Below, piece by piece: positions 9,654 to 56,275 of a stretch of 64,000 nt of DNA. Position 1 is the first letter of the stretch. Each line of letters begins with the position of its first letter. The stretch comes from Phycisphaerae bacterium (GTDB lineage Bacteria > Planctomycetota > Phycisphaerae > UBA1845 > Fen-1342), in assembly GCA_022072445.1 (NCBI GenBank), contig JAJVHV010000030.1, positions 5,971 to 69,970 on the forward strand, written 5' to 3'. The notes under the pieces were generated by a model. The model was given only the letters and a program-made list of their open reading frames with translations. It made no database searches and was not told the DNA's origin. The position numbers and the translations under genes were made by a program.

Positions 9654-10451
9654 ATGGCCAAGAAAAAGGCGGCACGGAAAGTGAAGAAGGCGAAGAAAGC
9701 CAAGAAGGGACTCAAGAAAGTCGCGATCGCCAAGGCGAAAAAATCCGCCCGAAAGCGCGCAGCGCGGCCGAAGGCGACCCGAAGCTCCAGGCCCGCCACC
9801 GCCCGCAAGAGCGCCGGCCGCACCGTCAAGAAAGCCGCCGCGACGCGCGCCCCGGCGGCCGGCCGAGCCGCCAGCACGCGCGTCGTGAAGTCCGCCAGCG
9901 CGGCCGAAACACGCGTCGCCGCCCGTGCGCCCGTTCCCCCGAAGATCGCGCCGCTGACACCCGCGGTCGGCGAGCCCGCGCCCGACTTCGCGCTGCAGGA
10001 CGAGCGCGGCAACACGCGCACGCTCAGTGCCTATCGCGGCCGCACGCTGGTGCTCTATTTCTATCCCAAGGACGACACGCCCGGCTGCACGCTTGAAGCC
10101 TGCGCGTTTCGCGATGCGTCCTCCGAGTTCGACGCTCTGGCCGCCGCCATCGTCGGCGTCTCGCCCGACACGTCGGAGAGTCATGCGGCTTTCGCGCAGA
10201 AGTTCAGCCTGCCGTTCACGCTGCTGGCCGATCCCGACCATCGCGTCTGCGAGAAATACGGCGTGTGGCGCGAGAAGAATCTCTACGGCGAGACGCGGAT
10301 GGGCGTGGTGCGGACGACGTTCGTCATCGACGAGAACGGCCGCGTCGCGCAGGTCTTCGAGGGCGTCCGGCCCGACGGGCACGACCGTGAAGTGCTGACC
10401 TGGCTGCGCTCGCGCCAGCCCGCGCCCAGCATCGCCCCGAGCGGGTATTGA
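9654..10451 (+). CDS. bcp: Bcp-type peroxiredoxin with ~100-aa Lys/Ala-rich N-terminal extension
   Basis: Core GEPAPDFALQDERG..LVLYFYPKDDTPGCTLEAC..GVSPDT..LLADPDH. The N-terminus MAKKKAARKVKKAKKAKKGLKK.. is in the same frame with no stop. Confidence 0.85.
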   Translation: MAKKKAARKVKKAKKAKKGLKKVAIAKAKKSARKRAARPKATRSSRPATARKSAGRTVKKAAATRAPAAGRAASTRVVKSASAAETRVAARAPVPPKIAPLTPAVGEPAPDFALQDERGNTRTLSAYRGRTLVLYFYPKDDTPGCTLEACAFRDASSEFDALAAAIVGVSPDTSESHAAFAQKFSLPFTLLADPDHRVCEKYGVWREKNLYGETRMGVVRTTFVIDENGRVAQVFEGVRPDGHDREVLTWLRSRQPAPSIAPSGY

Positions 10452-11380
10452 TGGGCGAGCACTTCGCCGACGCGCTGCTCGCCCGGATTCGGGAGCTGCG
10501 CGCCCCGGCCGCGGTCGGGCTCGATCCGCTCGCCGCGCGTCTGCCGCCCGAGCTGCGCGTCGACCCCGACGATGACGTCGCCGCCGCCGCCGCGTTCGAA
10601 GCCTTCGGCCGCGGCGTGATCGACACCGTCGCGCCGCTGGTCCCGGCGATCAAGATCAACTCCGCGTTCTTCGAAGCGCAGCACGAGCACGGCGTCGCGG
10701 CCTATTTCCGGCTGATCGCCCACGCCCGGCAGCGCGGCCTGCTGGTCATCGGCGACGTGAAGCGCGGCGACATCGGCTCAACCGCCGCACTCTACGCCCG
10801 CGGCCACCTCAGCGGCCGCGCGGCGCCCGACGCCGTCACGCTCGCCGGCTATCTGGGTGAAAACGCGGTCCGGCCGTTTGTCGACGTTTGCCGTGCCGAG
10901 CAGCGCGGCGTGTTCGTGCTCGTCCGACCGTCCGATCCGGGCGCTGACGAAGTTCACGAATTCGCAGGTGCTGCCGGTGCGACGCCCGGCTCGGCACGCC
11001 CGTTCTATCGTCACATGGCATCGCTGGTGGCGCGCTGGGGCAGCGACAGCGATCTGATCGGTCGGAGTGGGTACTCGTGCGTCGGCGCCGTGGTCGCGGC
11101 GAAGGACGCCGCCAGCACGCGCGCCCTGCGCGACGCCATGCCTGGCACGCTATTCCTGGTTCCCGGTTACGGCGCGCAGGGCGCTACCGCCGAAGCGTGC
11201 CGAAACTGCCTGAACGCCGACGGCCTGGGCGCGATCGTCAACGCGTCGCGCTCCGTCATCTTCGCCTACCTGGACGCCGGCGTCGCGGAGCGCGGCGGGG
11301 GCGACTGGCGCCGCTGCGTGCGGCTGGCGTGCGAAGATTTCGTCGCCGATCTACGCCGCGCGGGCCTGGCGCCCGCGTAG
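10451..11380 (+). CDS. pyrF: orotidine-5'-phosphate decarboxylase (type 2)
   Basis: ORF 10448..11380 (TTG, then ATG 10451 overlapping the bcp stop as TGATG). AVGLDP, AIKINSAFFE and GDVKRGDIGSTA motifs. Confidence 0.85.
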   Translation: MGEHFADALLARIRELRAPAAVGLDPLAARLPPELRVDPDDDVAAAAAFEAFGRGVIDTVAPLVPAIKINSAFFEAQHEHGVAAYFRLIAHARQRGLLVIGDVKRGDIGSTAALYARGHLSGRAAPDAVTLAGYLGENAVRPFVDVCRAEQRGVFVLVRPSDPGADEVHEFAGAAGATPGSARPFYRHMASLVARWGSDSDLIGRSGYSCVGAVVAAKDAASTRALRDAMPGTLFLVPGYGAQGATAEACRNCLNADGLGAIVNASRSVIFAYLDAGVAERGGGDWRRCVRLACEDFVADLRRAGLAPA

Positions 11381-11462
11381 CACAGCCGCCCCGGCCGCGC
11401 TCCCACCTGCACGCTTGGGTGCTTGGGCGAGCCGCGGCACATCCACTCCAGGTAGCCGACCG

Positions 11463-30831: not shown

Positions 30832-30842
30832 GCTTGCTCACT

Positions 30843-30937
30843 CGCTGGCGCTTCGTGCTCGGATGGGACTCCCGTTCACGCGCTGGCGCTTCGTGCTCCG
30901 ATCGCGCAGGTTCTGCATTCTGCATTCTTCATTCTGC
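30843..30937. repeat. intergenic cluster of short dispersed repeats
   Basis: cgctggcgcttcgtgctc occurs twice (30843-30860, 30881-30898). A heptamer array ttctgcattctgcattcttcattctgc (30911-30937) is identical to the reverse complement of 54252-54278 inside metH. Confidence 0.85.
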
Positions 30938-50568: not shown

Positions 50569-50897
50569 GCGGCATCGGTAAGTACATTCGCGACGCATCG
50601 TTGCCCGTTCACGATCCGCGCAGCGGATTTGAATCCGAGCACGCGGCGCGGCTGCTGATCCAGGCCGGGGCTCGGTGGATCGAGTTCGCCGATCTTGAGG
50701 TTTCCCGAACGGACGCACTCGACTGGATCGCGCGCGTCGTCAGCTCGATCCGCTCGAAGCCAAACGGCAGCGAGGAACTGACGCGCGCGCTCGAACGGGC
50801 ATCCGCGGAAACGGACAGGATGATTCGCGCGGCGAACTCAGGTCCGCTCGGCCGCGTTCTGGACGCACTCTCTCGGCCCTGGCGCAAGCCGACGTGA
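50544..50897 (+). CDS. hypothetical protein (orphan)
   Basis: GTG start overlapping the previous ORF by 25 nt. No motif recognised. Confidence 0.3.
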   Translation: MPPISPRLGGIGKYIRDASLPVHDPRSGFESEHAARLLIQAGARWIEFADLEVSRTDALDWIARVVSSIRSKPNGSEELTRALERASAETDRMIRAANSGPLGRVLDALSRPWRKPT

Positions 50898-51178
50898 GAC
50901 TCAGCCGTCAGGGCGGCGCCGCGACATCCGAACCCGGAGTCGATCTCGATACATCTTCGGTGATGGGTGCCGGCACTGGATCGCCGTGCTGCACAGGTCG
51001 AAGTCACGGTGGGAAGGCGTTGGCGGTCGTTGACGCGCTCCGTGCGCATGCCGACGCAACGGCCGTCGGCATGGCACCCGTGCATTCATGGGTTTGTGGA
51101 TTGGTGTATTCAAACACGCAGCGCCCTCGCTCGCTCGGCACCTTTGGTGAAGCACCATTGCGCCCCGCGCTCGCAACG

Positions 51179-54100
51179 CTACCTCACACTGAAATACCGC
51201 GCCGCGGGATGATGCGCGATCACCGCGCTGGTGCTCTGCTCCGGATCAAGCTGGTATTCGTCGCTGAGCGAAACGCCGATGCGCTGCGGCTCGAGCAACT
51301 GCATGAGCTTGGCCTGGTCTTCCAGGTTCGGGCAGGCCGGGTAGCCGAAGCTGAAGCGGCTGCCCTGGTAGCCCTGCTGAAACAGCTTCTGCCGCTCGCG
51401 GGCGTCGTCGCCGGCGATCCCAAGCTCCATCCGCACCTGCTTGTGCACGTATTCGGCCAGCGCCTCGGCGGTCTCGACGCCCAGGCCGTGCAGGAAGAGG
51501 TATTGCTGATACTCGTTGCGGGCGAACCACTCGCGGGCCACCTCGCTGACGCGCTGGCCGGCGGTCACCAGCGAAAGGGCGATCACGTCGGTCTCCCCGC
51601 TCTCGACCGGTCGCCAGAAGTCGGACAGACACCAGTGCGGCGGCTTCTGCTGCCGCGGGAAGGTGAAGCGGGCCACTTCACAGCCACGTTGCGACGGAGA
51701 CAAGGGCGAGCGAGAAGGTAGCCCGAATGAGCCACGGAGGGAGGGAGCGGCTCGATCGCTGGACAGGCCCGGAGAAGCGAGCGCAATCGGAGTCGATCCC
51801 GGCGCAGACGCCATCGACTCCAGTCCTTCCTTCCCCTTCGTGCCTCCGTGGCTTCCTGGCTTCGTGGCGCCTTCTCCTTTCGTGGCTTCGTGGCTTCGTG
51901 GCTTCGTGGCTGTGTCCCAGATGATCAGATCGTCGCCGTCGGAGTTGCAGGGCCAGTAGCCGTAGATGGCCTGCGGCCGGAGGATCGCCTCGCGCTCGCA
52001 ACGCGCGACCAGCTCGCGGTAGATCGGCCGCACGTCGCGGTCGATGTAGCGGCGGAAGTCATCGCCGGCGCGGCCGCGCTTGCGGAAGCCCCACTGCACC
52101 TGGAAGAGCATGATCTCGTTCATGTAGCCCAGAGCGGCCTTGAGCGGGATGTGCTCGAGCACGCGCGCACCCCAGAAGGGCGGCGCGGGAATGGCGTTGT
52201 CGATCGGGATTTCGGAGCGGCGGCGCGGCGGCGCGGCGGCGCGGGCGCGGTCAATCGCGCTGGCCGCGACGAGCGGGCCCTCGGCGACGGCGTCGTCATC
52301 CTCGGCGGTCTCGCCGATGGCGGCGAGGCCGAAGCGCTGCTCGGCGTCGAGGTCGAGGCGGCGCGGGGGTTGGGCGGCGGAGATCGACGCTGCTTCCAGG
52401 TCCGGGCGGTCCTTGCGTCCGAAGGAAACCCCTCCCTTACGGTCGGGGCTCGGCTGGGTGGCGGCGCTCGGCTGGGTGATTTCTCGTTCTTCCAACGCTT
52501 CGTCGCGTTGTCGCTTTTCCCCTTGGTCGTTTCGTCGCTCTGTCGCTTCGTCGCGTCGCCCCGTCGTCGCTTCGTCGCTTCGTCGCTTCGTCGCTGTGAT
52601 CTCCCCCATCAGCCGCAGACCCTCGAACGCGTCCTTCGCGTATGAGAGGCTTCCGGCGTAGAGCGGGCGCAGGTCGTTCTCGACGTAGCCGCGCGTCAGC
52701 GCGGCGCCGCCGAGGATGACCGGCACGCGGATGCCCTGCTCCTCGAGCACGAGCAGATCGTCGCGCATCACCAGCGTCGACTTCACCAGCAGGCCCGACA
52801 GCCCGATCGCGTCGGCGGCGTGCTCGCGCCAGGCGGCGATGACGTTGTTGATCGGCTGCTTGATGCCCAGGTTGAACACGCGGTAGCCGTTGTTGGTCAG
52901 AATGATGTCGACCAGGTTCTTGCCGATGTCGTGCACGTCGCCGCGGACGGTCGCCAGCACGATCCTGCCGCGCGACGTGTCGGCGGAGCGGTCCATGTGC
53001 GGCTCAAGCAGGGCGACGGCGGCTTTCATCGTCTCGGCGGACTTGAGCACGAAGGGGAGCTGCATCTGGCCCGAGCCGAAGAGGTCGCCGACGGTCTTCA
53101 TGCCGTCGAGCAGCAGGTTGTTGATGATGTCGAGCGGCGCGTAGGTCTGGAGCGCGACGGCGAGGTCGGCGTCGAGGCCGATTCTCTCGCCGTCGATGAT
53201 GCGGCGTTTGAGGCGCTCCTCGATGGGCAGGTCGGCGATCTTGACTTTCGTGCCGACTTGTTCGGTATCGGAGAAGAGGCCGATAAACCGAACCAGCGGG
53301 TCCTCATGTGGCACAGCCGCCCCCGGCTGTGAATGTGGCACAGCCGCCCCCGGCAGTGGCTGTGGCTGTGCCACATCGTAGATCAAATTCAGCGCCGCCT
53401 CCCAGCGCTCGTCGCTGATCTGATTGCGCGGCAGGATCTTGCTCGAATGCACGATCGCCGCGGTCAGGCCGCGCTGCCGGGCCTCGTGCAGGAACACAGA
53501 ATTGAGGACCGCGCGGGCGGCGGGGACAAGGCCGAAGCTGACGTTGCTGACGCCCAGGATCGACTGGCAGCGCGGGAAGCGCGTCATCACCGCTTCGATG
53601 CCGTCGAGCGTCTCGAGCGCCAGCCGCCGATCGGCCTCGTTGCCGGTCGTGATCGGGAATGTCAGGCAATCGAAGAAGATGTCCTCTTCGGCGACGCCGT
53701 ACTTGCGCGTGAGCAGGTCGTGAATGCGCGTGGCGATTTCGAGCTTGCGCTGCGCGGTCTTGGCCATGCTCTCGATCGGGTCTTCGTCGATCGTGAGCGC
53801 GACGACGGCGGCGCCGTATTGCCGCAGCAGCCGCGCGACGCGGGCCATCTTGACTTCGCCGTCCTCGAGGTTGACGGAGTTGACGATGCACTTGCCGCCG
53901 ATGAGCTTCAGGCCGGCTTCGATCACCTCGGGCTCGGTGCTGTCGAGCATGATGGGGACGTTGACGTCGACGGCGTAGCGGTCGGCGACGCGCGTCATGT
54001 CGGCGACGCCGTCGCGCCCGACGTAGTCGACGCACAGGTCGAGGACGTGCGCGCCTTCCTTCACCTGCTCGACGCCCACCTGCACCAGGCCCTCGATGTC

Positions 54101-55363
54101 GCCTTCCGCGAGCAGGCGTTTGAACTGCCGGCTGCCGTTGGTGTTGCTGCGCTCGCCGACGATCAGAAAGCTGTTGTCCTGGCGGTAGGGCATGGCCTGG
54201 TAAAGGCTGCTGCACGCCGCCTCACGAGATCGGCTCGGCGATGGGCCTAATGCAGAATGAAGAATGCAGAATGCAGAAGCGTCCTCCGTCGTCGAGCCGG
54301 GCTCAGGTTTCGTCGCCGGTGCGGGCGGATGCTCGGCGGACCCAGAAAGGCCGATTGCAGAGGCATCCGGCGACGAAGAACCGGTTTCTGCATTCCGCGT
54401 TCTGCATTCTGCATTGCTTTCTGCATTGCCGTGGAATCCGATCGCCTCCACCACCGCGCGCAGATGCGCCGGCGTCGTGCCGCAGCAGCCGCCGACGATC
54501 CGCACGCCGTCAACGTCGACGAACTCCTTCAGCCAGCGGGCCAGCTCGGCCGGCGCGAGCGGGAAGTGCGTACGCCCGCTGACGAGCTGCGGCAGGCCGG
54601 CGTTCGGCATCACGCTGATCGGACGCGTGCTGTTCCGCGCCAGATACCGCACGTGCTCGCTCATCTCCTGCGGCCCGGTGGCGCAGTTCAACCCGATTAC
54701 GTCGACTTCCGGATACGCCTCGATCGCCACCAGCGCGGCGGCGACGTCGGTGCCCACCAGCATCGTGCCGGTGGTCTCCATGGTTACCTGCACCATGAGC
54801 GGCAAGCGCTTGCCGGTTTTCTCGAACGCCGACAGCACGGCCCAGATCACGGCCTTGGCGTGCAGGATGTCCTGACACGTCTCGATCAGCATCGCGTCGC
54901 AGCCGCCGTCGATCAGCCCGCGGGCCTGCTCGCCGTAGCTCTCGAGCAGCCCGTCGTACGAAATCTGCCGCAGCGTCGGCAGCTTCGTCCCCGGACCGAG
55001 CGAGCCGACGACGAAGCGCGGCCGCGGCAGCGTCGAAAACGCCTCGCACGCCCGCCGCGCGATCTTCGCCGCCGCGACGTTGATCTCGTAGCAGCGGTCA
55101 GCCAGGCCGAACTCGGCCAGCACGTGCCGCATGCCGCCGAAGGTGTTGGTTTCGACCGCGTCGCAGCCGACGTCGAGAAAGCTGCGGTGAATTTGCTCGA
55201 CGGCGTCGGGGCGGGTGAGGTTCAGGACTTCGCAGCAGTTTTCGAGGCCGTTGTAGTCGCTCAGCGGCAGATCGAGCGCGTGGATGCTGGTGCCCATGGC
55301 GCCGTCGAGAAACACCACGCGCCGCCCGACGAGTTCCAGAAACGCCGATTCCGATCCGCGCAA
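51179..55363 (-). CDS. metH: cobalamin-dependent methionine synthase with four repeat-derived in-frame insertions
   Basis: All modules are present: Hcy-binding (VVFLDGAMGT..GGCCGTTP), pterin-binding (FLIVGERSNTNGS), B12-binding (GDVHDIGKNLV), AdoMet activation (PACPNLEDQ). 1394 codons from a TTG start. Confidence 0.95.
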   Translation of the reverse strand: MRGSESAFLELVGRRVVFLDGAMGTSIHALDLPLSDYNGLENCCEVLNLTRPDAVEQIHRSFLDVGCDAVETNTFGGMRHVLAEFGLADRCYEINVAAAKIARRACEAFSTLPRPRFVVGSLGPGTKLPTLRQISYDGLLESYGEQARGLIDGGCDAMLIETCQDILHAKAVIWAVLSAFEKTGKRLPLMVQVTMETTGTMLVGTDVAAALVAIEAYPEVDVIGLNCATGPQEMSEHVRYLARNSTRPISVMPNAGLPQLVSGRTHFPLAPAELARWLKEFVDVDGVRIVGGCCGTTPAHLRAVVEAIGFHGNAESNAECRTRNAETGSSSPDASAIGLSGSAEHPPAPATKPEPGSTTEDASAFCILHSALGPSPSRSREAACSSLYQAMPYRQDNSFLIVGERSNTNGSRQFKRLLAEGDIEGLVQVGVEQVKEGAHVLDLCVDYVGRDGVADMTRVADRYAVDVNVPIMLDSTEPEVIEAGLKLIGGKCIVNSVNLEDGEVKMARVARLLRQYGAAVVALTIDEDPIESMAKTAQRKLEIATRIHDLLTRKYGVAEEDIFFDCLTFPITTGNEADRRLALETLDGIEAVMTRFPRCQSILGVSNVSFGLVPAARAVLNSVFLHEARQRGLTAAIVHSSKILPRNQISDERWEAALNLIYDVAQPQPLPGAAVPHSQPGAAVPHEDPLVRFIGLFSDTEQVGTKVKIADLPIEERLKRRIIDGERIGLDADLAVALQTYAPLDIINNLLLDGMKTVGDLFGSGQMQLPFVLKSAETMKAAVALLEPHMDRSADTSRGRIVLATVRGDVHDIGKNLVDIILTNNGYRVFNLGIKQPINNVIAAWREHAADAIGLSGLLVKSTLVMRDDLLVLEEQGIRVPVILGGAALTRGYVENDLRPLYAGSLSYAKDAFEGLRLMGEITATKRRSDEATTGRRDEATERRNDQGEKRQRDEALEEREITQPSAATQPSPDRKGGVSFGRKDRPDLEAASISAAQPPRRLDLDAEQRFGLAAIGETAEDDDAVAEGPLVAASAIDRARAAAPPRRRSEIPIDNAIPAPPFWGARVLEHIPLKAALGYMNEIMLFQVQWGFRKRGRAGDDFRRYIDRDVRPIYRELVARCEREAILRPQAIYGYWPCNSDGDDLIIWDTATKPRSHEATKGEGATKPGSHGGTKGKEGLESMASAPGSTPIALASPGLSSDRAAPSLRGSFGLPSRSPLSPSQRGCEVARFTFPRQQKPPHWCLSDFWRPVESGETDVIALSLVTAGQRVSEVAREWFARNEYQQYLFLHGLGVETAEALAEYVHKQVRMELGIAGDDARERQKLFQQGYQGSRFSFGYPACPNLEDQAKLMQLLEPQRIGVSLSDEYQLDPEQSTSAVIAHHPAARYFSVR
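51836..51914. repeat. octamer array (tggcttcg)n ending tggctgtg, inside metH
   Basis: The perfect array lies at 51883-51914, with degenerate copies from 51836. It encodes TATKPRSHEATKGEGATKPGSHGGTKG. Confidence 0.85.
52448..52598. repeat. gctcggctgggtg x2 plus octamer array (tcgcttcg)n ending tcgctgtg, inside metH
   Basis: The 13-mers lie at 52448-52460 and 52466-52478; the octamer array lies at 52567-52598. It encodes ATKRRSDEATTGRRDEATERR.. Confidence 0.85.
53306..53376. repeat. 27-nt tandem repeat with hairpin-forming core, inside metH
   Basis: atgtggcacagccgcccccggc(tgtga/agtgg) x2, followed by the inverted ctgtggctgtgccacat. The cacagccg/cggctgtg arms are self-complementary. It encodes PGAAVPH x2. 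Confidence 0.85.
54249..54430. repeat. ~180-bp composite palindromic element inside metH
   Basis: Outer arms are (gcagaat)n at 54251-54280 and (attctgc)n at 54386-54430. Inner arms are ggtttcgtcgccgg at 54306-54319 and ccggcgacgaagaacc at 54367-54382. Confidence 0.85.
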
Positions 55364-55408
55364 CGCGACTTCCTCTGTCTGCTGGCCGGTGAGATTCTAT
55401 GCGAACGC

Positions 55409-55512
55409 CGCCCCTGCTGCCCCCTTTGACCCTTCAACCCTTCGACCCCCTGGCCCCTCGCCCCGTGAGCCCCTCGGCCCCCTCGGCCCCCTCGACCTCT
55501 CGGCCCCTTCGA
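55409..55512. repeat. C-rich short tandem/dispersed repeats in the metH / aldolase divergent intergenic region
   Basis: Iterations of cccctcggcc / ccttcgacc between the metH start (55363) and the aldolase start (55538). Confidence 0.7.
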
Positions 55513-55537
55513 TTTGCTTTCCCCGCGAATCTTCATC

Positions 55538-56275
55538 ATGCTGTATCCGGAGCCGAGCACCTTGGCATTGAACGAACAGACCCTGCGCGAACAGATCTGC
55601 GATGTCGGCCGGCGAATTTACGCCCGCGGATTCGCCGCCGGCAACGACGGAAACATCTCGCACCGCCTCGGGCCGGATCGCGTCCTCTGTACGCCGACGC
55701 TGGTCAGCAAGGGCGCCATGAGGCCCGACGACCTCTGCATCGTCGACATGGAAGGTCGTCAGCTCGCCGGCACACTCAAGCGCACCAGCGAAATCATGCT
55801 CCATCTCGAAGTCCTCCGCGCCGACGCCTCCGTCCAGTCCGTCGTCCATTGCCATCCGCCGCACGCCACCGCCTTCGGCGTCGCGCACGAGCCGATCCCC
55901 TCGTGCATCCTGCCGGAGGTCGAGATTTTTCTGGGCGTTGTGCCGCAGGCCGAATATCAGACCCCCGGCGGCCGCGACTTCGCGGCGACCGTGCGGCCGT
56001 TTCTCGGACGGGCCAACACGGTGGTGCTCAGCAATCACGGCACGGTCAGTTGGGGTCCCACGCTCGAACAAGCTTATTGGAACACCGAAATCCTCGACGC
56101 CTACTGCCGCATCCTGATCCTGGCGCGGCTGCTGGGCCGGGTGGAACGCATTCCGGACGAAAAGGTCCTCGAGCTCCTGAAGCTGCGCGAGAAATTCGGC
56201 GCACCGGCAGACCCGCGCCTGGTCGAGGGTGCACCGATGCGGGTCAACGAGACGTTCGGGCGTCCGCCCGAATAG
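55538..56275 (+). CDS. class II aldolase/adducin-family protein (fuculose-phosphate aldolase or MTRu-1-P dehydratase-like)
   Basis: ORF 55514 (TTG)..56275; ATG 55538. GNDGNISHR, SEIMLHLEV, VVHCHPPHATAF, LSNHGTVSWG. Confidence 0.85.
   Translation: MLYPEPSTLALNEQTLREQICDVGRRIYARGFAAGNDGNISHRLGPDRVLCTPTLVSKGAMRPDDLCIVDMEGRQLAGTLKRTSEIMLHLEVLRADASVQSVVHCHPPHATAFGVAHEPIPSCILPEVEIFLGVVPQAEYQTPGGRDFAATVRPFLGRANTVVLSNHGTVSWGPTLEQAYWNTEILDAYCRILILARLLGRVERIPDEKVLELLKLREKFGAPADPRLVEGAPMRVNETFGRPPE

What the first reader, a model, noticed from the sequence alone, without database searches (positions are those of the whole stretch)
51179..55363. metH carries four in-frame insertions made of dispersed short repeats, all at linkers or loops
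The ORF is 1394 codons, against 1227 in E. coli MetH. The excess maps to four patches. (i) 54249-54430 lies between the Hcy- and pterin-binding modules. (ii) 53306-53376 (PGAAVPH x2) lies before the cap/B12 module. (iii) About 52250-52620 (RRSDEAT-type repeats) lies between the B12 and AdoMet-activation modules. (iv) About 51700-51925 (HEATKP-type repeats) lies in a surface loop of the activation module. Each patch is built from octamer, heptamer or hairpin repeats of the kind normally seen in intergenic DNA, yet every one preserves the reading frame. An essential multidomain enzyme therefore seems to tolerate, or exploit, repeat invasion specifically at inter-domain hinges.
Basis: partly seen in the sequence, partly recalled or inferred. 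Interest (0 to 1): 0.55.

Follow-up and report, generated by a model that had tools for sequence, protein, structure and literature searches.

The report
Intergenic-type repeats translated inside methionine synthase
The methionine synthase gene of this uncultured Phycisphaerae bacterium carries four in-frame patches of short repeat DNA, of kinds that mostly lie between genes, and all four sit in flexible linkers or a loop, which extends a known phenomenon with an apparently undescribed class of repeat.

Summary
ORF 51179-55363(-) is an intact 1394-aa MetH with all five Pfam domains. Against 119 Phycisphaerae/Planctomycetota homologues (typically about 1200 aa) it has four extra patches:
- R1, aa 313-372, Hcy-Fol linker.
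- R2, aa ~664-686, Fol-Cap linker.
- R3, aa 924-975, start of the Cob-Act linker.
- R4, aa 1151-1221, a beta-hairpin loop of the activation domain.

All four have non-native codon usage (GC3 0.50-0.65 against 0.91 in the core) and low AlphaFold confidence.

Their DNA content is:
- R1: a 179-nt hairpin whose arms are TGCAGAA heptamer arrays.
- R2: two copies of a small GC hairpin.
- R3: a GCGACGAA octamer array plus a REP-like motif.
- R4: a GCCACGAA octamer array plus a degenerate tail.

The same repeat types are common in environmental genomes and metagenomes. They are mostly non-coding there, but also occur in frame in IleRS, ValRS, AlaRS, CarB and TGT. Other Phycisphaerae MetH genes carry different array hairpins at the same four sites.

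The most likely reading is tolerated, translated "junk" insertions at permissive hinges, analogous to Rickettsia RPEs. Exploitation is not shown. I judge it a new variant of a known kind, of moderate interest.

The parts
51179..55363 (-). metH ORF, 1394 codons, TTG start; cobalamin-dependent methionine synthase
   Evidence: ORF list. Pfam PF02574, PF00809, PF02607, PF02310 and PF02965. Thermus MetH 8g3h_A at E=0. Identical to P0001 from a Phycisphaerae MAG.
54248..54427 (-). R1: 60-codon insertion (aa 313-372) in the Hcy-Fol linker. It is a hairpin element with TGCAGAA-heptamer arms (54386-54427 and 54249-54278) and a nested inner inverted repeat containing the CGACGAA motif (about 54367-54382 and 54306-54319).
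   Evidence: Inverted repeat 30 nt, 90% complementary, 107-nt spacer. RNA fold z = -5.8. GC3 0.50 vs 0.91 in the core. pLDDT <50. Region 81 vs median 21 aa.
53306..53376 (-). R2: about 19-23-codon insertion (PGAAVPH x2) in the Fol-Cap linker. Two tandem 27-nt units, each holding the small hairpin CAGCCG-GGGG-CGGCTG, plus an upstream complementary TGTGGCACAGCC.
   Evidence: TRF period 27 x2.3. Fold z = -3.4. GC3 0.58. pLDDT about 58. The same motif sits at the same site in P0002, and between genes in L001 (5756) and downstream of the IleRS ORF in L144 (4305).
52496..52595 (-). R3a: GCGACGAA octamer array (12.5 degenerate units, about 3.9 perfect at the 5' end) encoding (ATKRRSDE)-type peptide at the start of the Cob-Act linker.
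   Evidence: GC3 0.65. The same octamer occupies the same place in P0065. Modelled as an extension of the last Cob helix with falling pLDDT.
52429..52478 (-). R3b: an 18-nt direct repeat and one arm of a REP-like motif (CCAGCCGAGCCCCGACCGTAAGGGAGGGG), encoding TQPSPDRKGG.
   Evidence: TRF period 18. The motif recurs as an intergenic hairpin just after metH in L001 and many times in L003. It occurs twice at the same place in P0009 and next to octamer arrays in L204 and L240.
51701..51913 (-). R4: 71-codon insertion (aa 1151-1221) in a loop between two beta-strands of the AdoMet-activation domain. GCCACGAA octamer array at 51836-51911, followed by a non-repetitive tail with weak inverted complementarity to the array.
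   Evidence: Inverted repeats I11/I15 at 79-81%. GC3 0.63-0.64 and 26-35% rare codons. pLDDT 30-46 between strands 1145-1149 and 1229-1234. Region 81 vs median 17 aa.
30911..30937 (+). Second copy of the heptamer array (TTCTGCATTCTGCATTCTTCATTCTGC) in a convergent intergenic spacer, 27/27 identical to the right arm of R1.

Best explanation
Short repeat DNA of the kinds that populate intergenic regions of Phycisphaerae and other GC-rich environmental bacteria has become lodged in frame at four structurally permissive places of metH. The repeat kinds are hairpins whose arms are tandem 7- or 8-nt units, free octamer arrays, and small REP-like palindromes.

How it works. The patches are transcribed and translated with the gene, giving low-complexity, probably disordered extensions of three inter-module linkers and one surface loop. 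The enzyme stays functional because MetH is a string of modules that move on flexible tethers.

Why only these copies are seen. Purifying selection passes only copies that keep the frame, contain no stop codon and sit outside the folded cores.

What is shown and what is inferred. The origin as non-coding repeat DNA and the placement are shown. Translation, near-neutrality and the insertion mechanism (copy-paste or gene conversion from other genomic copies, plus local slippage) are inferred.
For: 1. The gene is intact and all four patches map to gaps between aligned blocks of solved full-length MetH. Catalytic and ligand columns are conserved: C227, C293/C294, D809-H811-G814, G1340-Y1341-P1342.
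2. Codon usage. The core has GC3 0.91 and 5% rare codons; the patches have GC3 0.50-0.65 and 23-38% rare codons. The 12 worst 30-codon windows of the gene all fall in or at the edges of the four patches. The native part of the long linker has GC3 0.89.
3. AlphaFold2. Domains score pLDDT >90, while the patches score about 30-60.
4. The same repeats occur outside genes:
- The heptamer array is 27/27 identical in an intergenic spacer of the window.
- TTCTGCA-array hairpins are found in many phyla.
- The REP-like motif and the R2 hairpin lie between genes in relatives.
5. Recurrence. Other MetH genes carry different array hairpins or arrays at the same four sites, and 8 of 9 sequenced R1 inserts fold as hairpins. 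One of these is the cultured strain RAS1, which argues against a MAG-specific artefact.
6. Signs of translation:
- The units found in genes are stop-free in every frame they pass through.
- In RAS1 the GTAGCGA array is interrupted just where a third consecutive unit would read TAG.
- In the 8 Pfam-verified octamer-array host genes the sampled array always lies in the hydrophilic ATK(R/P)RS(D/H)E sense.
7. The phenomenon is not confined to MetH: in-frame arrays occur in IleRS, ValRS, AlaRS (same site twice), CarB (twice), a MiaB/RimO-type enzyme, DUF58 and TGT.
Against: - There is no protein or transcript evidence that the full-length product is made.
- There are no population data. The nearest known relative is only about 77% identical in the core, so the insertions cannot be dated precisely and copy-number variation cannot be seen.
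- Within this window the octamers, the R2 unit and the REP-like motif have no clear second copy. Their dispersal in this particular genome is therefore inferred from other genomes.
- R1-type arms are more alike between lineages (67-89% identity) than fourfold-degenerate sites of the same genes (55-65%). That fits young or repeated insertions, but also fits some constraint, which pure neutrality would not predict.
- Five of the six clear 7/8-nt arrays in 64 kb lie in one gene. Tolerance alone does not obviously explain this concentration.
Confidence: 0.72

Rival explanations
1. The insertions are exploited. Longer, disordered or charged tethers could tune the large domain swings of MetH. Alternatively, the strong mRNA hairpins and rare-codon clusters at module boundaries could slow ribosomes to aid co-translational folding.
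For: - All patches sit exactly at module boundaries or in a loop.
- Rare codons are concentrated there, and the R1 and R2 RNAs are significantly structured.
- The same hinge is occupied by hairpins in many lineages, and hairpin complementarity is kept.
- The arms are more conserved than silent sites.
- The octamer-encoded charged stretch is modelled as a helix continuing the last Cob-domain helix.
Against: - About 80% of the homologues have no R1 or R4 insert and are presumably functional.
- Insert sequences differ completely between lineages.
- The same DNA occurs in non-coding positions and in unrelated genes.
- R3 and R4 RNAs are not more structured than shuffles.
- The placement is what selection against disruptive insertions would produce anyway.
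Confidence: 0.15
2. The 7- and 8-nt arrays act as phase-variation switches. Gain or loss of one unit shifts the frame and turns MetH, or its activation module, off and on.
For: The unit lengths are not multiples of three. The 5' ends of the R3 and R4 arrays have about 4 perfect units each.
Against: - Most of each array is degenerate (72-75% matches), which suppresses slippage.
- Four perfect units is short for a contingency locus.
- The host genes are housekeeping enzymes, not surface or restriction genes.
- No variant alleles are available.
Confidence: 0.04
3. Artefact or decay: a mis-assembled or chimeric MAG contig, or a pseudogene.
For: The source is a metagenome-assembled genome, and short repeats are classical assembly traps. 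No second contig with this protein is on record.
Against: - The frame is kept across four separate patches in a 1394-codon ORF, with uniform core GC3 of 0.91 and conserved catalytic columns.
- Each array is shorter than a typical read.
- Equivalent insertions occur in independent assemblies from NCBI, JGI and ENA and in the isolate RAS1.
- No core segment has a much closer relative than the others, although that test is weak.
Confidence: 0.04
4. The patches are removed before the mature protein forms, by intein-like splicing, RNA processing or ribosomal bypass of the hairpin.
For: R1 forms a very stable hairpin (about -88 kcal/mol over 201 nt), reminiscent of bypass elements.
Against: - There are no intein or other extra Pfam domains.
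- All inserts in all lineages keep the frame and avoid stop codons, which removal would make unnecessary.
- Octamer arrays are orientation-biased towards hydrophilic peptides.
Confidence: 0.02

Closest known systems
Rickettsia palindromic elements (RPE) inserted in frame in protein-coding genes (Ogata et al., Science 2000; summarised in PMC3733652)
   Same: Dispersed hairpin-forming repeats found both between genes and in frame inside housekeeping genes. They are translated as extra surface or linker peptide and are compatible with function.
   Different: RPEs are 100-150-bp families with a defined consensus, confined to Rickettsia. Here the elements are arrays of 7- or 8-nt units, often as inverted pairs, plus small REPs. 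They occur in free-living GC-rich phyla and hit the same hinge repeatedly.
REP / REPIN elements, including REPs located inside ORFs (Di Nocera et al. 2013, PMC3733652)
   Same: Short palindromes, often in inverted doublets, mostly downstream of genes and occasionally inside ORFs. R2 and the R3 motif look like this. A related copy at 11376-11392 supplies the TAG stop of a gene, as described for GTAG REPs.
   Different: The GTAG/CGTC tags and the association with RAYT transposases were not established here. The heptamer and octamer arrays are not classical REPs.
Cyanobacterial STRR (short tandemly repeated repetitive) heptanucleotide arrays (Mazel et al. 1990; from my own knowledge)
   Same: Dispersed tandem arrays of 7-nt units. 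The genome scan for TTCTGCA arrays also hit Moorena and Nostoc.
   Different: As far as I know, STRR are described as intergenic, with other unit sequences. Hairpin pairing of arrays and in-frame residence in enzymes are not part of that description.
Tandem repeats creating disordered regions in Borg proteins (Schoelmerich et al. 2023, PMC9879509)
   Same: Nucleotide tandem repeats inside ORFs that add low-complexity, disordered peptide without breaking the gene.
   Different: Here the units are 7-8 nt, so every frame is read in turn, and the same arrays exist elsewhere in the genomes.
Canonical MetH (E. coli, 1227 aa from my own knowledge; Thermus structures 8g3h, 8ssc)
   Same: Same five modules in the same order, with conserved ligand and catalytic motifs.
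   Different: About 200 extra residues in four patches. In addition, the whole Phycisphaerae clade has a Cob-Act linker about 70 aa longer than Thermus, with a conserved EQR(Y/F)GL motif.

Membership tests
Cobalamin-dependent methionine synthase (MetH) | Five modules in the order Hcy - Fol - Cap - Cob - Act | tested here: met
   Pfam PF02574 (18-307), PF00809 (403-639), PF02607 (715-787), PF02310 (799-916), PF02965 (1230-1393). Four aligned blocks to 8g3h_A.
Cobalamin-dependent methionine synthase (MetH) | Conserved ligand and catalytic motifs: Zn cysteines, DxHxxG cobalamin motif, GYP of the AdoMet site | tested here: met
   Invariant or near-invariant columns C227, C293, C294, D809, H811, G814, G1340, Y1341, P1342 in 120 sequences, query included.
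REP / REPIN | Short imperfect palindrome able to form a hairpin | tested here: met
   R1 arms 30 nt at 90% complementarity. R1 z = -5.8 and R2 z = -3.4 against shuffles. R3 and R4 arrays are not structured (z about 0).
REP / REPIN | Many dispersed copies in the same genome, mainly extragenic | tested here: inconclusive
   Only 64 kb of the genome is available, giving one extra heptamer copy (30911-30937) and one weak R2-like copy (11376-11392). In other genomes and metagenomes the families are abundant and mostly non-coding.
REP / REPIN | Association with a RAYT (IS200/IS605-like Y1) transposase | not tested
   No transposase search of the window or genome was made.
MITE | Terminal inverted repeats, size 70-300 bp, target-site duplication | tested here: inconclusive
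   R1 has 30-nt terminal inverted arms and is 179-180 nt long. Only a trivial 'GGC' is shared by the two flanks, so there is no convincing duplication.
Rickettsia palindromic elements | Sequence homology to an RPE family consensus | not tested
   No RPE consensus was available in the tools, so the resemblance is functional only. Rfam gave no match to any family in 50800-55800.
Phase-variable contingency locus | Long perfect repeat tract with length heterogeneity in populations | not testable with these tools
   The tracts have about 4 perfect units and are otherwise degenerate. No second assembly of this lineage exists.
Intein or other self-removing insert | Hint/intein or homing-endonuclease domain | tested here: not met
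   Apart from one sub-threshold overlap (CdhD, 18.2 bits vs the 24.8 cut-off, inside the pterin-binding domain), Pfam finds only the five MetH domains at E<=0.01. The patches are low-complexity.

The most novel reading that the evidence does not exclude
'Array hairpins' are palindromes whose arms are tandem 7- or 8-nt units (TGCAGAA, GTAGCGA, AGTCAGA, GGGGATC, NNNACGAA and others). They may form an undescribed, cross-phylum class of self-propagating or self-maintaining DNA element. On this reading they repeatedly settle in the same hinge codons of large housekeeping enzymes (MetH, aminoacyl-tRNA synthetases, CarB, TGT). They would be kept there by some constraint, since the arms stay complementary and are more conserved than silent sites, so they would be more than passive junk.
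Probability: 0.2. Interest if true: 0.7.

Novelty: new variant of a known kind. Interest (0 to 1): 0.5.

Why it matters
The finding shows how far a large, mechanically demanding enzyme can absorb non-coding DNA. About 200 residues (14% of the protein) have been added at exactly the tethers that MetH uses for its domain rearrangements.

It also points to a family of periodic hairpin and array repeats spread over Planctomycetota, Acidobacteriota, Verrucomicrobiota and others. My text searches did not find these described. They inflate and diversify housekeeping proteins in uncultured bacteria.

Practical consequences:
- Such patches confuse annotation. NCBI names this protein "Glutamate mutase sigma subunit".
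- They mark permissive insertion sites that are useful for engineering MetH and synthetases.
- They offer natural linker-length variants for testing models of MetH domain dynamics.

Tried and rejected
- Rfam, E-value mode, on 50800-55800: no RNA family matched.
- Literature searches for the exact repeat strings and their peptides (TGCAGAATGCAGAA, GCGACGAAGCGACGAA, SDEATKRR and others): zero papers. Searches combining Planctomycetes/Phycisphaerae with repeat terms found nothing specific.
- I suspected that the exact 27-mer with the TTCTTCA variant unit was a conserved cross-phylum element. Only 2 of 134 sampled arms carry it, so I rejected this. The arrays vary freely between loci.
Two overlapping halves were modelled instead.
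- Look-up of the source contig by exact protein: not on record. No further genome sequence and no population variants were obtainable.
- Chimera test by segment-wise nearest neighbours: uninformative, because every relative is 70-84% identical.
No total counts or taxonomic frequencies can be given.
- The neighbour-joining tree has no support values. 'Independent gains' versus 'ancient gain with many losses' at the R1 site is therefore not settled.
Full report
**1. What is in the sequence**

The six-frame ORF list gives a single open frame at 51179..55363 on the minus strand, 1394 codons with a TTG start.
- Pfam finds the five modules of cobalamin-dependent methionine synthase in canonical order: S-methyl_trans 18-307, Pterin_bind 403-639, B12-binding_2 715-787, B12-binding 799-916, Met_synt_B12 1230-1393. 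It finds no other family above its curated threshold.
- Against the PDB the best matches are the full-length Thermus MetH structures 8g3h and 8ssc (E = 0). The alignment breaks into four blocks: query 7-310, 383-928 (with an internal 19-residue gap at 669-687), 1041-1150 and 1223-1393.
- The translation is identical to a database protein from a 'MAG: Phycisphaerae bacterium' on a 207,637-bp contig. NCBI names it 'Glutamate mutase sigma subunit', which is a mis-annotation. The next relative is only 63% identical over the full length.

**2. Size and position of the excess**

I aligned the 120 best homologues, all Phycisphaerae/Planctomycetota, most of them 1190-1210 aa. I then measured four regions between fixed conserved anchors.

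| Region | Query | Median of 120 | Note |
|---|---|---|---|
| R1 (aa 306-386) | 81 | 21 | longest of all 120 |
| R2 (662-690) | 29 | 10 | |
| R3 (922-1050) | 129 | 82 | range 35-204 |
| R4 (1146-1226) | 81 | 17 | longest of all 120 |

Codon usage draws the borders sharply.
- The core of the gene has GC3 = 0.91 and 5% rare codons.
- aa 313-372 (R1) has GC3 0.50.
- aa 668-686 (R2) has 0.58.
- aa 924-975 (R3, repeat part) has 0.65.
- aa 1151-1221 (R4) has 0.63-0.64.
- The patches carry 23-38% rare codons.
- The remainder of the long Cob-Act linker (976-1045) has a native GC3 of 0.89.
- The twelve lowest-scoring 30-codon windows of the whole gene all lie in or at the edges of these four patches.

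The insertions therefore total about 200 codons. Range (iii) is too wide: only about 52439-52595 is foreign.

**3. What the patches are made of**

R1 (54248-54427)
- It is bounded by 30-nt inverted arms, 54249-54278 and 54386-54415, 90% complementary with 107 nt between them. The arms are tandem TGCAGAA heptamers.
- Its spacer holds a second, nested inverted repeat containing CGACGAA (read).
- The RNA folds at -88 kcal/mol, z = -5.8 against shuffles.

R2 (53306-53376)
- It is a 27-nt unit repeated 2.3 times. Each unit contains the small hairpin CAGCCG-GGGG-CGGCTG. Fold z = -3.4.

R3
- It begins with 12.5 degenerate GCGACGAA octamers (52496-52595).
- These are followed by an 18-nt direct repeat and one arm of a REP-like motif, CCAGCCGAGCCCCGACCGTAAGGGAGGGG (52429-52478).

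R4
- It begins with 9.2 GCCACGAA octamers (51836-51911).
- A non-repetitive tail follows that is weakly complementary to the array (79-81% inverted repeats).
- The R3 and R4 RNAs are not more structured than shuffles.

Chance does not explain any of this: 0 of 100 dinucleotide shuffles reach the observed motif counts.

**4. Structural placement**

Two AlphaFold2 models were built with 71-sequence alignments.

N-terminal half, residues 1-720 (mean pLDDT 83.5):
- Both barrels score above 90.
- R1 and its flanks score below 50 (segments 312-314, 327-352, 356-377, 387-397). R2 scores about 58.

C-terminal half, residues 700-1394:
- The Cap, Cob and Act cores are confident.
- Residues 954-999 and 1031-1041 (R3) and 1157-1216 (R4) score below 50.
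- R4 lies between two strands (1145-1149 and 1229-1234), so it is a beta-hairpin loop of the activation module.
- The charged octamer-encoded stretch (923-955) is modelled as a continuation of the last Cob-domain helix, with steadily falling confidence.

Together with the gaps in the alignment to the crystal structures, this confirms 'linkers or loops' for all four patches.

**5. Are these repeats of the intergenic kind?**

In the window itself:
- Only the heptamer array recurs. 30911-30937 lies in the spacer between two convergent ORFs and is 27/27 identical to the right arm of R1.
- A weaker R2-like copy (GTAGCACAGCCGCCCC) overlaps the TAG stop of the ORF ending at 11380.

Evidence from elsewhere is much broader:
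I estimate about 70 chance hits for the whole collection.
- It returned many GC-rich Acidobacteriota, Thermoanaerobaculia, Verrucomicrobiota, Planctomycetota and Chloroflexota contigs. The array often occurs there as an inverted pair forming a near-perfect hairpin next to gene ends.
I estimate fewer than one chance hit.
- By a codon-periodicity test, 107 of those 120 loci are non-coding and 13 lie inside genes.
- The REP-like motif forms an intergenic hairpin directly after metH in L001 and occurs several times in L003. It sits next to octamer arrays in L204 and L240.
- The R2 hairpin occurs between genes in L001 and downstream of the IleRS ORF in L144.

**6. Relatives**

DNA was obtained for ten other MetH genes.

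R1 site:
- Eight of the nine genes that carry an R1 insertion, this one included, have a hairpin with heptamer-array arms.
- TGCAGAA-type arms occur in this genome, P0012 and P0024.
- GTAGCGA-type arms occur in P0006 (the cultured strain RAS1), P0003 and P0015.
- AGTCAGA-type arms occur in P0002 and P0060.
- P0030 keeps a one-armed remnant.

Other sites:
- P0065 has the same GCGACGAA array at the same place in R3.
- P0009 has two copies of the REP-like motif at the place where this gene has one and a half.
- P0002 has the same GGGGCGGCTGTGCCACA hairpin in R2 and a GGGGATC-array hairpin in R4.
- P0024 has GGCACGRA octamers in R4.

History of the sites:
- In a neighbour-joining tree the R1-bearing sequences are interleaved with many sequences that lack an insert. 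Some (P0006/P0015/P0003 and P0054/P0060) are adjacent.
- The history is therefore probably a mix of inheritance and repeated gain or loss. The tree has no support values, so I leave this open.
- The R3 composite looks older, being shared with P0009 and P0065. R1 and the large R4 are specific to this lineage in the present sampling.

**7. Signs that the patches are translated and filtered by selection**

- A 7- or 8-nt unit passes through all three frames. Most of the units found inside genes (TGCAGAA, GCGACGAA, GCCACGAA, GGGGATC, AATCCAA, AGGGAAC, GGCACGAA and others) are stop-free in all six frames.
- Several of the array units found between genes are not stop-free in all frames.
- GTAGCGA would give TAG in its third frame. 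In RAS1 the array is interrupted after two units by a variant, and the frame reads on.
- In the eight Pfam-verified host genes with octamer arrays, the sampled array is always in the sense that encodes hydrophilic ATK(R/P)RS(D/H)E, never the hydrophobic FVASSLRR.
- All lineages keep the frame.
- These points argue against removal by splicing or bypass, and no intein-like domain is present.

**8. The phenomenon is not peculiar to MetH**

- In the flanks of the relatives, the tgt gene carries CGTGGGAA arrays or hairpins in two genomes.
- Among the scan hits, in-frame arrays lie in:
  - IleRS (L144);
  - ValRS (L065, with a TGCAGAA hairpin);
  - AlaRS (L169 and L220, at the same site);
  - CarB (L152 with two hairpin inserts, and L200);
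  - a MiaB/RimO-type radical-SAM enzyme (L161);
  - a DUF58 protein (L231);
  - a GDE_N protein (L110).
- Even so, in this window five of the six clear 7/8-nt arrays sit in metH, which is 6.5% of the sequence. MetH, with three long tethers, seems unusually permissive.

**9. Interpretation**

The best-supported reading is that intergenic-type repeat DNA has entered metH at permissive places, is translated as disordered tether or loop, and is tolerated. I give this about 0.72.
- Shown: the insertions, their repeat nature, their non-native codon usage, their placement, and the existence of the same repeat families outside genes and in other genes.
- Inferred: translation, near-neutrality and the mode of entry.
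- On the mode of entry, the 27/27 identity with an intergenic copy suggests copying from another locus rather than local slippage alone. No target-site duplication or transposase was identified.

One observation does not fit pure neutrality comfortably. R1-type arms of different lineages are 67-89% identical, while fourfold-degenerate sites of the same genes are 55-65% identical against 41-46% expected from composition. The arms also remain complementary.
- Internal repetitiveness inflates such identities.
- Recent re-insertion would also explain the pattern.
- Even so, some constraint or self-homogenisation cannot be excluded.

This keeps alive the rival that the hairpins or tethers are exploited (about 0.15). 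I give less weight to phase variation through 7/8-nt slippage (about 0.04), to assembly artefact or pseudogene (about 0.04) and to removal before maturation (about 0.02).

**10. Comparison with what is known**

In-frame residence of palindromic repeats in functional genes has been known since the Rickettsia RPEs and was catalogued for REPs by Di Nocera et al. (PMC3733652, read). Tandem repeats that create disordered regions are known from Borg elements (PMC9879509, found). Heptanucleotide STRR arrays are known from cyanobacteria (my own knowledge).

The points that appear new are:
- the repeat class itself, meaning periodic 7/8-nt arrays, often as hairpins, together with a very conserved REP-like motif;
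- its spread over several phyla;
- the repeated occupation of the same hinges of one enzyme;
- the orientation and stop-codon filtering.

Text searches for the repeat strings and peptides found nothing. The library is incomplete, however, so the absence is weak evidence.

**11. Verdict**

I class it as a new variant of a known kind. I set interest at about 0.5: solid and somewhat surprising in extent, but without evidence of function.

Noticed in passing
window 55438-55511: A 9-nt tandem array (CCCCTCGGC, 8.8 copies) fills most of the spacer between the metH start (55363) and the divergent ORF starting at 55514. It may overlap the promoters of both genes.
   Followed up: no
window 30839-30937: This intergenic spacer between convergent ORFs holds two about-26-nt direct repeats (CAC(T/G)CGCTGGCGCTTCGTGCTC(G/C)GAT) followed by the TTCTGCA array. 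A similar composite (CGCTCGGGGTTCGGA repeats, a TTCTGCA array and GTAGCGA units) is seen in Phycisphaerae locus L079.
   Followed up: partly
window about 52325-52345 (aa 1005-1012); alignment A1: The Cob-Act linker of the whole Phycisphaerae clade is about 70 aa longer than in Thermus MetH. It contains a nearly invariant E-Q-R-(Y/F)-G-L motif modelled as a short helix. This is native sequence (GC3 0.89), not an insertion, and its role is unknown.
   Followed up: partly
L002 2234-2334; L003 7052-7080 and 7707-7733: The tRNA-guanine transglycosylase gene (tgt, PF01702) near metH carries CGTGGGAA/TTCCCACG octamer arrays or a hairpin inside its ORF in two distant Phycisphaerae genomes.
   Followed up: partly
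L169 5831-8752 and L220 4261-6057: Two AlaRS genes from different metagenomes carry octamer-array insertions at the same place (after '...GTLP'). L220 has a second insertion further upstream. CarB in L152 has two hairpin-type octamer inserts.
   Followed up: partly
L204 about 9399, L240 about 879, L140 about 1005, L147 6359, L079 2060, L003 (several), L125 13093: The motif (C)AGAGCCGCGACCGTAAGGGAGCGG is almost identical across many unrelated contigs and often sits beside GCCACGAA arrays. This suggests a composite element or a conserved protein- or RNA-recognition site. The window's copy of the motif (52429-52478, inside the 50800-55800 stretch searched) matched no Rfam family; the other loci were not searched.
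   Followed up: partly
window 11376-11392: A REP-like sequence (GCGTAGCACAGCCGCCCCGGC) related to the R2 unit provides the TAG stop codon of the ORF 10448..11380. This matches the behaviour described for GTAG-tagged REPs in PMC3733652.
   Followed up: no
window 51179-55363 (database entry P0001): The public record names this full-length MetH 'Glutamate mutase sigma subunit', presumably from the B12-binding domain alone. This is an annotation error.
   Followed up: yes
L125 15584-16624 and 2896-4086: In the relative with the longest MetH (P0009, 1458 aa), a Transposase_mut (PF00872) gene lies about 1.2 kb downstream of metH and a phage-type integrase lies upstream. I did not examine whether this relates to the repeat load.
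   Followed up: no
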